Shown here: positions 14,126 to 14,630 of the stretch, piece after piece
Position numbering within the stretch: position 1 is the stretch's first letter
Layout: each line of letters starts with the position of its first letter
From: a virus
Lineage: Duplodnaviria; Heunggongvirae; Uroviricota; Caudoviricetes
Length of the DNA stretch: 40,663 bases
IMG/VR virus record: IMGVR_UViG_2874951433_000008
Direction: 5' to 3' (one strand)
The notes under the pieces: model-generated
The model's input: only the letters and a program-made list of their open reading frames with translations
Told to the model about the DNA's origin: nothing
Databases searched by the model: none
Position numbers and translations under genes: made by a program

Positions 14126-14352
14126 TTTTATGGGGCACCTTTCTGATTGATTTCATATTGGCGAGGTAAGTAGAATGACTGCGGGTGCTTGAGGCTATCT
14201 GCTTCAGGCATGAACACCAAAAGGCAGATAGAGAAAAGCCCCAGTTAACATTACGCGTCCGGCAAGACGCTTAACATTAATCTGAGGCCAATTTCATGCT
14301 TTGCACATGTAGGTTAGCCTCTTACATGCCGAAAGGCAAGGAGAAGCAGGCT

Positions 14353-14508
14353 ATGAAGCAGCAAAAGGCGATGTTAATCGCCCTGATCGTCATCTGTTTA
14401 ACCGTCATAGTGACGGCACTGGTAACGAGGAAAGACCTCTGTGAGGTACGAATCCGAACCGGCCAGACGGAGGTCGCTGTCTTCGTAGACTACGAATCCA
14501 GGAAGTAA
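14353..14508 (+). CDS. hok: Hok/Gef-family type I toxin (51 aa)
   Basis: MKQQKAMLIALIVICLTVIVTALVTRKDLCEVRIRTGQTEVAVF… is a near match to the Hok/RelF family; the upstream leader and downstream fold-back region are present. Confidence 0.85.
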   Translation: MKQQKAMLIALIVICLTVIVTALVTRKDLCEVRIRTGQTEVAVFVDYESRK

Positions 14509-14583
14509 GAGTGACCGGGTGGGGAGCTGATCCCATCCCCGCCCACCTCTGATGTGTCAGGCATCCTCAACGCACCCGCACTT

Positions 14584-14630
14584 AACCCGCCCATCGCTGT
14601 GATCTCTCAGCGTTTCGGCGGGTTTTTTGT
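14584..14630 (+). terminator. Rho-independent terminator at the 3' end of the hok transcript
   Basis: AACCCGCC…GGCGGG stem followed by TTTTTT. Confidence 0.5.

What the first reader, a model, noticed from the sequence alone, without database searches (positions are those of the whole stretch)
14296..14630. hok-like type I toxin locus inside the prophage
A 51-codon ORF nearly identical to Hok/RelF-family membrane toxins is followed by a fold-back region and a terminator. The antisense RNA and mok-like leader ORF that normally control such loci are not obvious from ORF calls, so it is unclear whether this copy is regulated, silent or degenerate.
Basis: partly seen in the sequence, partly recalled or inferred. 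Interest (0 to 1): 0.45.

Follow-up and report, generated by a model that had tools for sequence, protein, structure and literature searches.

The report
Complete hok/mok/sok toxin–antitoxin locus

Summary
A 51-codon Hok/Gef toxin gene lies at 14353..14508 (Pfam HOK_GEF, E 4e-23), followed by a fold-back element and a terminator.

The locus is larger than the finding's coordinates, about 14147..14629, and nothing canonical is missing.
- The "missing" mok leader is the 70-codon ORF that starts at the finding's own start coordinate (14296). It is in frame with hok.
- The "missing" Sok antisense RNA maps to 14304→14234 on the minus strand. Its promoter, TTGCCT-17-TAACCT, has the same hexamers as sokW of phage 933W, annotated in the GenBank record.
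- The Rfam hok-leader model (named "sok") matches 14183..14358 at 117 bits.
- The 5' tac element pairs with the 3' fbi element (−21.5 kcal/mol, pair probability 0.97 or higher).
- ucb/mok-SD and mok-SD/dcb pairings and a metastable 5' hairpin are all present. They covary across 35 loci from six enterobacterial genera.

The Hok protein differs from experimentally validated HokW at one residue. RefSeq already labels the identical gene hokD. E. coli K-12 hokD is the truncated version.

Verdict: already known and intact by sequence, so presumably regulated as in plasmid R1 and hokW. Expression was not tested. Window-specific oddities are a 23-nt terminator-loop insertion and an enlarged 3'UTR hairpin loop; their effect is unknown.

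The parts
14147..14176 (+). hok/mok mRNA promoter candidate: -35 TTGATT (14147..14152), 18-nt spacer, -10 TAGAAT (14171..14176)
   Evidence: Consensus scan, 9 of 12 matches. The -10 TAGAAT is conserved in 933W, HannyBb and other loci. The predicted start at 14183 lies 7 nt after the -10 and coincides with position 1 of the Rfam model.
14183..14627 (+). Full-length hok/mok mRNA, about 445 nt (ends inferred)
   Evidence: MFE -187.7 kcal/mol, z -8.7 against shuffles; the 5' and 3' ends pair. 91% identical to the 933W hokW locus.
14183..14194 (+). tac (translational activator) element GGGUGCUUGAGG
   Evidence: Pairs with fbi in the full-length fold (pair probability 0.97-1.0). Pairs with ucb in the Rfam consensus and in the MFE of 62-140-nt nascent transcripts. 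Near-invariant in 35 loci.
14201..14211 (+). Partner of tac in the metastable 5' hairpin of the nascent transcript
   Evidence: MFE of the first 30-50 nt pairs mRNA 3-13 with 19-29, -16.9 kcal/mol.
14236..14244 (+). ucb (upstream complementary box / anti-SD) AAGCCCCAG
   Evidence: Pairs with the mok SD in the full-length fold (probability 0.97-0.99) and with tac in the open form. Flanking pairs covary: AU 24 / GC 10; GC 11 / AU 10.
14234..14304 (-). Sok antisense RNA, 71 nt: 15-nt single-stranded 5' tail complementary to the mok AUG region, 52-nt hairpin, UUUU tail
   Evidence: Coordinates transferred by alignment from the annotated 71-nt sokW of 933W, AF125520. Fold -28.6 kcal/mol, z -4.7. 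The 5' end lies 7 nt downstream of the -10 hexamer.
14311..14339 (-). sok promoter: -35 TTGCCT (14339..14334), 17-nt spacer, -10 TAACCT (14316..14311)
   Evidence: Both hexamers are identical to 933W sokW. The -35 is TTGCCT or TTGACC in all 35 loci. The -10 is TAnnnT in 29 of 35; the six hokC-type loci read ACTCT in a gapped column. Mutating the sokW -10 region unleashes HokW toxicity (PMC8621323).
14284..14288 (+). mok Shine-Dalgarno GAGGC
   Evidence: GAGG lies 8 nt before the ATG at 14296. Invariant in 35 loci. Alternately paired with ucb or dcb.
14296..14508 (+). mok-like leader ORF, 70 codons, in frame with hok and sharing its stop
   Evidence: ORF list. Same 57-nt offset and frame as the annotated mokW. 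A leader ORF starting at this position is present in all 35 loci: frame 0 in 27, frame +1 in 4, and a 19-codon ORF ending at the hok start in 4.
14317..14321 (+). dcb (downstream complementary box) GCCUC
   Evidence: Pairs with the mok SD in the Rfam consensus and in the MFE of the 140-nt leader. The pairs are invariant.
14338..14343 (+). hok Shine-Dalgarno AAGGAG
   Evidence: Read directly from the sequence, 9 nt before the ATG at 14353. In the full-length fold the SD and start region is paired with 14476..14499.
14353..14508 (+). hok toxin gene, 51 aa: MKQQKAMLIALIVICLTVIVTALVTRKDLCEVRIRTGQTEVAVFVDYESRK
   Evidence: Pfam HOK_GEF, E 4.3e-23. One residue differs from HokW. The identical gene is annotated hokD, WP_014532198.1, in RefSeq.
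14517..14544 (+). 3'UTR hairpin just after the stop codon (GGGUGGGGA / UCCCCGCCC, 10-nt loop)
   Evidence: Full-length fold. Homologous G+C-rich hairpin in all loci; the loop here is 5 nt longer than in 933W.
14565..14577 (+). fbi (fold-back inhibitory) element CCUCAACGCACCC
   Evidence: Best duplex partner of tac in the 3'UTR, -21.5 kcal/mol. Compensatory change U-A to C-G in 11 of 34 distinct sequences.
14584..14629 (+). Intrinsic terminator: composite hairpin at 14584..14624 followed by a T-run, with a window-specific 23-nt insertion (14591..14613) in the loop
   Evidence: Fold -24.2 kcal/mol against -17.1 for the canonical CCCGC-UUCG-GCGGG version. The insertion is seen by alignment with 7 other loci.

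Best explanation
Window 14147..14629 is a complete, sequence-intact hok/mok/sok type I toxin-antitoxin locus of the HokD/HokW cluster. It lies in the nin region, between queH and the Q-like antiterminator gene, of an IS-riddled lambdoid prophage of Shigella type.

Proposed mechanism, inferred by homology to plasmid R1 hok/sok and to hokW/sokW of phage Sp5/933W:
1. A promoter with a good -10 (TAGAAT) makes a stable mRNA of about 445 nt.
2. While nascent, its 5' tac element is held in a metastable hairpin.
3. Once complete, tac pairs with the 3' fbi element and ucb covers the mok Shine-Dalgarno. The full-length mRNA is then neither translated nor bound by Sok.
4. Slow 3' trimming removes the terminator and fbi. 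tac switches to ucb and the mok SD switches to dcb. This exposes the mok start region.
5. The 71-nt Sok RNA, made from the opposite strand, pairs through its 15-nt 5' tail with the mok start region, and the duplex is cut by RNase III.
6. If Sok supply stops (loss of the DNA, a transcription block, DNA damage), ribosomes translate mok into the hok start. The 51-aa Hok then depolarises the inner membrane.

Shown here: every sequence element, the pairings and their covariation. Inferred: transcription, processing, Sok action and toxicity.
For: - Toxin: Pfam HOK_GEF, E 4e-23.
- Leader: Rfam RF01794 covers 14183..14358 end to end at 117 bits against a gathering score of 59.
- Closest relative: 91% DNA identity to the 933W/VT2-Sakai locus, whose GenBank record annotates mokW, hokW and a 71-nt sokW in the same geometry. 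Hok differs from HokW by one residue.
- Differences from 933W: none of the 35 differences between +1 and fbi falls in tac, ucb, the mok SD, dcb, the sok hexamers, the hok SD or fbi.
- Long-range pairing: tac/fbi duplex -21.5 kcal/mol; pair probabilities 0.97-1.0 in the ensemble.
- Energetics: with fbi present, the closed form is favoured over the open form by about 20 kcal/mol. Once fbi is removed the gap is only 0.5-6 kcal/mol.
- Nascent transcripts: the metastable hairpin and the open-form leader are the MFE structures of 30-50-nt and 62-140-nt transcripts.
- Covariation across 35 loci from Escherichia, Shigella, Kluyvera, Photorhabdus, Pantoea, Erwinia and Citrobacter: 84.5% of cells are paired against about 41% when partners are slid, and 38 pairs carry double changes against 12-21.
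- sok promoter: hexamers conserved, with the start 7 nt after the -10.
- Experiment on the close homologue: HokW is toxic; sokW neutralises it partly through RNase III and Hfq; a sokW -10 mutant is toxic (PMC8621323).
Against: - No expression data for this copy.
- Chromosomal hok loci tested earlier did not mediate post-segregational killing (summarised in bioRxiv 10.1101/2025.08.07.668861).
- The sok promoter is a weak consensus match, 7 of 12 by my count, and the promoter scan did not list it.
- The hok -35 region differs from related phages. Its spacer is 10 bp shorter than in HannyBb, which puts a different TTGATT at 18 nt.
- The terminator carries a 23-nt insertion and the 3'UTR hairpin a larger loop. 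Both could change termination or 3' processing.
- Thermodynamic prediction does not actually flip the truncated mRNA to the open form; it only narrows the gap.
- The NCBIfam Hok models score below their curated cut-offs: 55 bits against 73.
Confidence: 0.85

Rival explanations
1. Intact by sequence but physiologically silent. The locus is transcribed too weakly or processed too poorly ever to release Hok. It persists as a neutral passenger of a dead prophage, as proposed for the chromosomal hokA, hokB and hokC loci.
For: Chromosomal hok loci of E. coli C, K-12 and ECOR24 failed to mediate killing or to respond to rifampicin (cited in bioRxiv 10.1101/2025.08.07.668861). The prophage is defective, with IS copies in several places and the terminase gene interrupted. 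The window has its own changes in the hok -35 and spacer, the 3'UTR hairpin and the terminator.
Against: No inactivating lesion of the kinds known from K-12 is present: no IS in the 3'UTR as in hokC (L015), and no loss of the leader as in hokD. Every regulatory element is conserved, and the Hok ORF is intact in all near-identical copies (L001-L003). The 98%-identical HokW system is active (PMC8621323).
Confidence: 0.25
2. Same molecular mechanism but a different role. The module serves the phage lytic programme, by accelerating membrane damage and progeny release after induction as shown for hokW/sokW, or excludes superinfecting phages. It would not be a prophage addiction module.
For: In Sp5, mitomycin C depletes sokW and raises HokW, and deleting the locus halves phage release (PMC8621323). 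hok genes are about four-fold enriched in prophages (bioRxiv). The locus sits in the nin region upstream of the Q-like gene and the lysis cassette.
Against: This prophage looks unable to produce particles: terminase split by IS2, a head gene with an internal stop in the near-identical L001, partial integrase. A release function cannot currently be selected for here. There is no evidence on phage exclusion for this cluster.
Confidence: 0.3
3. Degenerate relic. The toxin ORF is a remnant whose regulatory RNA context has decayed, like hokD of E. coli K-12.
For: K-12 hokD (Qin prophage) aligns only from mRNA position +157 and lacks tac, ucb, the mok start and sok. That shows this fate occurs in the same cluster.
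Against: The window copy has the complete leader and 3'UTR with all pairings intact.
Confidence: 0.03

Closest known systems
hokW/mokW/sokW of Stx2 phages 933W and Sp5 (VT2-Sakai); GenBank AF125520, AP000422; Takada et al. 2021, PMC8621323
   Same: 91% DNA identity from about 20 nt upstream of the mRNA start to fbi. Hok of 51 aa with one substitution. A 70-codon mok in frame, 57 nt upstream. A 71-nt Sok overlapping the first 9 nt of mok. Identical sok -35 and -10 hexamers. Identical tac, ucb, mok SD, dcb and fbi.
   Different: Position in the phage genome: the nin region here, as in phages HannyBb and mEp460_ev081, against the far right arm next to tail-fibre genes in 933W. Seven of the 12 leader differences cluster in the mok start / Sok 5' tail. 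The sequence after fbi differs: here a CCCGC..GCGGG terminator with a 23-nt insertion, in 933W an unrelated sequence. The 3'UTR hairpin loop is larger.
hok/sok (parB) of plasmid R1, the paradigm for the mechanism
   Same: The same set of elements in the same order at nearly the same mRNA positions. The mok AUG is at +114 against +116, and the hok AUG at +171 against +174 (R1 numbering from PMC9841398). Both have tac/fbi, ucb/SD, SD/dcb, a metastable hairpin, and Sok antisense to the mok start region.
   Different: HokW is only 44% identical to R1 Hok (PMC8621323). R1 mok is 58 nt upstream of hok, hence in the +1 frame; here it is 57 nt upstream and in frame, giving an N-terminally extended Hok. 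The Sok hairpin here is longer: the Rfam alignment shows a 16-nt insertion relative to the model. R1 is a plasmid-stability module, whereas this copy is in a prophage.
hokD (relF) of E. coli K-12, Qin prophage
   Same: Same Hok cluster, 90% protein identity. PGAP names the window's gene hokD. Both lie in lambdoid prophages.
   Different: K-12 hokD lacks everything upstream of mRNA +157. relE sequence abuts the hok SD, so there is no tac, ucb, mok start or sok. The window copy is the full-length ancestral form.
hokC (gef)/mokC/sokC of E. coli
   Same: In-frame 69-codon mok and the same element order; it aligns over the whole mRNA (L016-L022).
   Different: About 80% Hok identity. A shorter Sok hairpin (18-nt deletion relative to the window). 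The K-12-type copy L015 has foreign sequence in the 3'UTR and no proper fbi.

Membership tests
hok/sok/mok type I toxin-antitoxin loci (Pfam PF01848 toxin plus Rfam RF01794 leader) | Hok/Gef toxin ORF of about 50 aa with the conserved Cys, Thr, Leu-Cys-Glu and Glu positions | tested here: met
   HOK_GEF at 81 bits against a cut-off of 22. C15, T17, L29-C30-E31 and E40 are present; the conserved positions follow the logo described in bioRxiv 10.1101/2025.08.07.668861.
hok/sok/mok type I toxin-antitoxin loci (Pfam PF01848 toxin plus Rfam RF01794 leader) | Leader ORF (mok) with its own SD that is translated into or through the hok start region | tested here: met
   ATG at 14296, 8 nt after GAGG; 70 codons reading through the hok start. 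A leader ORF sits at the same position in all 35 aligned loci.
hok/sok/mok type I toxin-antitoxin loci (Pfam PF01848 toxin plus Rfam RF01794 leader) | cis-encoded antisense RNA gene (sok) with its own promoter, overlapping the mok start region and ending in a terminator hairpin | tested here: met
   Met at the sequence level only. TTGCCT-17-TAACCT, with the start at 14304, 7 nt after the -10. A 71-nt RNA with a 5' tail, a hairpin and UUUU. The transcript itself was not observed.
hok/sok/mok type I toxin-antitoxin loci (Pfam PF01848 toxin plus Rfam RF01794 leader) | Long-range 5'-3' pairing (tac/fbi) that locks the full-length mRNA | tested here: met
   12 pairs, -21.5 kcal/mol, probability 0.97 or higher, compensatory U-A to C-G change in 11 of 34 sequences.
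hok/sok/mok type I toxin-antitoxin loci (Pfam PF01848 toxin plus Rfam RF01794 leader) | Alternative pairings ucb/mok-SD (closed) and tac/ucb plus mok-SD/dcb (open), and a metastable 5' hairpin | tested here: met
   All three pairings are formable and conserved. However, the predicted energy of the truncated RNA still slightly favours the closed form, by 0.5-6 kcal/mol.
hok/sok/mok type I toxin-antitoxin loci (Pfam PF01848 toxin plus Rfam RF01794 leader) | 3' exonucleolytic processing to a translatable truncated mRNA; RNase III cleavage of the Sok-mRNA duplex | not testable with these tools
   Requires Northern blots or 3' RACE in wild-type and rnc backgrounds. Shown for R1 (PMC9841398) and, for the RNase III dependence, for hokW (PMC8621323).
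hok/sok/mok type I toxin-antitoxin loci (Pfam PF01848 toxin plus Rfam RF01794 leader) | Toxicity of Hok and its neutralisation by Sok | not testable with these tools
   Inferred from HokW, which differs at one residue and is toxic and neutralised by sokW (PMC8621323), and from HokD-cluster toxicity assays (bioRxiv 10.1101/2025.08.07.668861).
NCBIfam Hok family models (NF007279 subfamily, NF007290 HokA equivalog) | Score at or above the curated cut-off | tested here: not met
   55 bits against 73, and 38.9 against 89. These models centre on other Hok clusters. PGAP nevertheless names the identical protein HokD.
K-12-type truncated hokD (relBE-hokD arrangement) | hok ORF preceded by relE, without tac, ucb, mok or sok | tested here: not met
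   The window has the full leader. K-12 aligns only from +157, and L007 shows relE sequence upstream.

The most novel reading that the evidence does not exclude
The most variable stretch between this copy and its two paralogues in the same Shigella flexneri genome is the 16 nt spanning the mok start, which on the other strand is the single-stranded 5' tail of Sok. It differs at 6-8 of 16 positions, against 0-1 of 55 in the Sok hairpin. This may be diversifying selection that insulates co-resident hok/sok modules from each other's antitoxin, so that each prophage keeps its own private addiction or trigger circuit. The window-specific 23-nt terminator insertion and the larger 3'UTR loop might additionally retune the 3'-processing 'timer'.
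Probability: 0.3. Interest if true: 0.35.

Novelty: already known. Interest (0 to 1): 0.1.

Why it matters
It matters little beyond annotation.

- The locus should be annotated as a full hok/mok/sok module, including the Sok RNA and the mRNA leader. RefSeq's annotation of the near-identical prophage lists only a hokD CDS there.
- It shows that the truncated K-12 hokD has intact full-length relatives in related lambdoid prophages.
- A heavily decayed prophage that still keeps an intact toxin-antitoxin module fits the idea that such modules resist deletion. That is a known idea, not a new one.

Tried and rejected
1. Consensus promoter and terminator scan. It found the hok promoter but neither the sok promoter (7 of 12 matches by my count, below its threshold) nor the terminator (loop too long). 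Both were located by homology and folding instead.
2. A 17-nt complementarity between the hok SD region (14328..14344) and the terminator-loop insertion (14603..14619), reported as inverted repeat I2. I considered it as a possible second fold-back inhibitor. It was rejected because 8% of shuffled insertions pair as well and the pairs have zero probability in the ensemble.
3. I expected the 3'-truncated mRNA to switch to the open tac/ucb form in MFE prediction. It does not. The closed form stays 0.5-6 kcal/mol better, against about 20 kcal/mol with fbi present. I treat this as within prediction error, not as evidence against the switch.
4. NCBIfam gave only sub-threshold Hok hits.
5. The Rfam family called 'sok' matches the plus strand. 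Its consensus begins with tac and ends at the hok AUG, so it models the hok mRNA leader, not the antisense strand. It is therefore not direct evidence for Sok.
6. The PLSDB plasmid search gave mostly partial matches. Full-length matches to hokD-annotated loci on smaller plasmids are 85-86% identical, and one 4.9-Mb record reaches 89.6%. There was nothing closer than the phage and prophage copies.
7. I did not retrieve the R1 sequence itself. R1 positions are taken from PMC9841398.

Full report
**What is there**

Reading 13900..14900 and listing ORFs shows a 70-codon ORF at 14296..14508 on the plus strand. Its last 51 codons, from the ATG at 14353, match Pfam HOK_GEF at E 4.3e-23, 81 bits against a cut-off of 22. 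The finding's start coordinate is therefore the start of the longer ORF, not of the 51-codon one.

A scan of the whole window against Rfam gives one strong hit here. RF01794 ('sok antitoxin') matches 14183..14358 on the plus strand at 117 bits, with a gathering score of 59 and E 3.5e-26, covering all 157 model positions. The model consensus starts with GGGUGCUUGA and ends with the AUG that aligns to the hok start codon. Despite its name, it describes the hok mRNA leader in the sense orientation.

A sigma-70-like promoter, TTGATT-18-TAGAAT at 14147..14176, ends 7 nt before position 1 of that match.

**Context**

The locus sits between queH (13439..14125, Pfam QueH E 2e-65) and a 95-aa ORF followed by a DUF1367 gene.

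The best DNA match is E. coli FDAARGOS_943/944 at 99.8%. There PGAP annotates the identical gene as hokD (WP_014532198.1). It lies inside a lambdoid prophage next to modABC-ybhA, with cI/Cro-like, replication, DUF1364, Q-like DUF1133, tRNA, holin/lysozyme and head genes. That prophage also carries IS600, IS1 and IS2 copies and several pseudogenes.

Window 8921..16576 is 99.4% identical to that prophage, and the window carries further IS copies. An identical Hok is encoded in Shigella flexneri SFBU1023 (L003). The window is therefore most likely of Shigella or close E. coli origin. The 'inside the prophage' claim holds.

**Closest characterised relative**

Against phage records, the region is 91% identical to the hokW locus of 933W and VT2-Sakai/Sp5. 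It is 88-90% identical over a longer stretch to phages HannyBb, mEp460_ev081, Evi and Tritos, where the locus also lies between replication genes and Q.

The 933W GenBank record annotates three features:
- mokW, 70 aa;
- hokW, 51 aa, with the same stop and a start 57 nt later;
- a 71-nt sokW antisense RNA whose 5' end lies 8 nt inside mokW.

Alignment transfers these to the window without indels in the leader after mRNA position 37:
- mok = 14296..14508;
- hok = 14353..14508;
- Sok = 14304→14234 on the minus strand.

The window's Hok differs from HokW only at residue 50.

Takada et al. (PMC8621323) showed four things. HokW is toxic. sokW expressed from its own promoter neutralises it, partly through RNase III and Hfq. 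Mutating the sokW -10 region restores toxicity. Mitomycin C depletes sokW, raises HokW and promotes Sp5 release.

**The antisense gene**

On the minus strand the sequence reads TTGCCT (14339..14334), then 17 nt, then TAACCT (14316..14311), then ACATGT, then G at 14304. Both hexamers are identical in 933W. The only promoter difference is one spacer base.

Across 35 aligned loci:
- the -35 is TTGCCT or TTGACC in all;
- the -10 is TAnnnT in 29, with the six hokC-type loci reading ACTCT in a gapped column;
- the spacer is 17-18 nt.

The 71-nt RNA folds into a 15-nt single-stranded 5' tail, complementary to the mok AUG and the spacer before it. A 52-nt hairpin with a G+C-rich base and UUUU follow (-28.6 kcal/mol, z -4.7). 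This is the shape expected of Sok.

**The mRNA switch**

The 445-nt RNA 14183..14627 folds at -187.7 kcal/mol with z = -8.7. In that fold:
- nt 1-12 (tac, 14183..14194) pair with 14565..14577 (fbi), with pair probabilities 0.97-1.0;
- GCCCCAG (ucb, 14238..14244) pairs with CUGAGGC (mok SD, 14282..14288), with probabilities 0.97-0.99;
- the mok AUG pairs next to fbi;
- the hok SD and AUG pair with the 3' end of the hok ORF.

Nascent transcripts of 30-50 nt form a hairpin that sequesters tac. Transcripts of 62-140 nt adopt exactly the Rfam consensus, tac/ucb plus mok-SD/dcb.

Forcing the open form costs about 20 kcal/mol while fbi is present, but only 0.5-6 kcal/mol once the 3' end is trimmed past fbi. 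This is the R1 logic described in PMC9841398. The prediction narrows the balance but does not invert it.

**Conservation**

A scan of one genome per species returned 47 related loci. Thirty-five distinct full-length mRNAs were aligned. They come from Escherichia, Shigella, Kluyvera, Photorhabdus, Pantoea, Erwinia/Kalamiella, Citrobacter and two phages.

- Every one has a tac/fbi duplex of -18 to -27 kcal/mol.
- On the window's full-length structure, 84.5% of cells are paired against 38-44% when partners are slid by 1-3 columns.
- 38 pairs show changes on both sides, against 12-21 in the slid controls.
- Clear compensations include tac U4-A to C-G in 11 of 34 sequences, and the pairs flanking ucb/SD (AU 24 / GC 10; GC 11 / AU 10; GC 23 / AU 10).

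The leader ORF starts at the same place in all loci but in any frame. It is in frame with hok in 27, in the +1 frame in 4, and a 19-codon ORF stopping at the hok start in 4. That fits the finding that translation of mok up to the hok start matters, not its product (PMC9841398). In R1 the offset is 58 nt (+1 frame). Here it is 57 nt, as in mokW and mokC.

**Degenerate copies look different**

- K-12-type hokD (L007; MG1655, H121) aligns only from mRNA +157 and has relE sequence upstream.
- K-12-type hokC (L015) has foreign sequence in its 3'UTR and no proper fbi.
- L006 has lost tac.

None of these lesions is present in the window. Of the 35 differences from 933W between +1 and fbi, none touches tac, ucb, the mok SD, dcb, the sok hexamers, the hok SD or fbi.

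**What is particular to this copy**

- The hok -35 and spacer region is 10 bp shorter than in HannyBb, which brings a different TTGATT to 18 nt from the -10.
- The 3'UTR hairpin has a loop 5 nt longer than in 933W.
- The terminator CCCGC-UUCG-GCGGG of related loci carries a 23-nt insertion (14591..14613). The insertion forms an inner stem, giving -24.2 against -17.1 kcal/mol. Its first 14 nt resemble 14538..14551.

The effect of these changes on transcription, termination or 3' trimming is unknown. A tempting complementarity between the insertion and the hok SD is not better than chance.

**Verdict**

The finding is a correct sighting of a known element. [quoted passage not shown] The identical gene is already labelled hokD in RefSeq. 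About 87% of complete E. coli genomes (4713 of 5426) hold a related copy. hok enrichment in prophages has been reported (bioRxiv 10.1101/2025.08.07.668861).

Whether it is active in vivo needs RNA and genetic experiments.

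Noticed in passing
window 14289..14304, compared with L008 and L005/L010 (S. flexneri SFBU1023 CP182556.1): Among three hok/sok paralogues co-resident in one Shigella flexneri genome, differences pile up in the 16 nt around the mok start, which is the Sok 5' tail on the other strand. That stretch differs at 6-8 of 16 positions, against 0-1 of 55 in the Sok hairpin region. This could limit antitoxin cross-talk.
   Followed up: partly
window 14491..14494: The Tyr47 codon UAC is followed by G, giving the UACG motif, and the TACGAA hexamer is invariant in all 35 loci. The Hok preprint describes TadA A-to-I editing that recodes the equivalent Tyr to Cys in hokC, hokD and hokE. 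Here the motif sits in a palindrome, CTTCGTAG/CTACGAA (I4), and the local structure needed for editing was not assessed.
   Followed up: no
window 14591..14613: A 23-nt insertion in the loop of the hok terminator hairpin. It is absent from the seven other loci aligned, and most of the E. coli matches listed end just before it. Its first 14 nt resemble 14538..14551 (D1), suggesting a local duplication.
   Followed up: partly
window 14649..14676: A second promoter-like site with the same hexamers as the hok promoter, TTGATT-16-TAGAAT. It lies just after the hok terminator and about 80 nt upstream of a 95-aa ORF (14758..15045) with no Pfam or NCBIfam match.
   Followed up: no
window 6898..7086 (-): Adjacent Rfam hits to C4 antisense RNA (75.7 bits) and IsrK Hfq-binding RNA (61.5 bits) on the minus strand. 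These are phage-type regulatory RNAs elsewhere in the same prophage.
   Followed up: no
window 16714..17023 (+): A cluster of four tRNA genes downstream of the Q-like gene: CAU (called Met by ARAGORN, Ile in the RefSeq annotation of L001), Arg-UCU, Thr-UGU and Gly-UCC.
   Followed up: no
window 2383..5851, 7581..8923, 17780..19030, 26550..27882, 33649..34888: Multiple segments that match the IS600- and IS2-annotated parts of L001. Some occur at positions where the near-identical prophage of FDAARGOS_943 has none, showing ongoing IS-driven decay of the prophage.
   Followed up: partly
L029 1485..1830 (Photorhabdus temperata): A second hok locus about 630 nt downstream of the first on the same contig, with a shortened 45-aa Hok lacking four C-terminal residues. 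Faridani et al. mention clustered hok loci in Photorhabdus (PMC1635323).
   Followed up: no
L014, L019, L048 (contigs labelled Acinetobacter idrijaensis, Xanthomonas pisi, Candidatus Scatousia): Very short contigs (275-2995 bp) from non-enterobacterial assemblies encode Hok fragments 89-100% identical to the window's. These are likely contamination of those assemblies with Escherichia/Shigella DNA rather than true occurrence.
   Followed up: no
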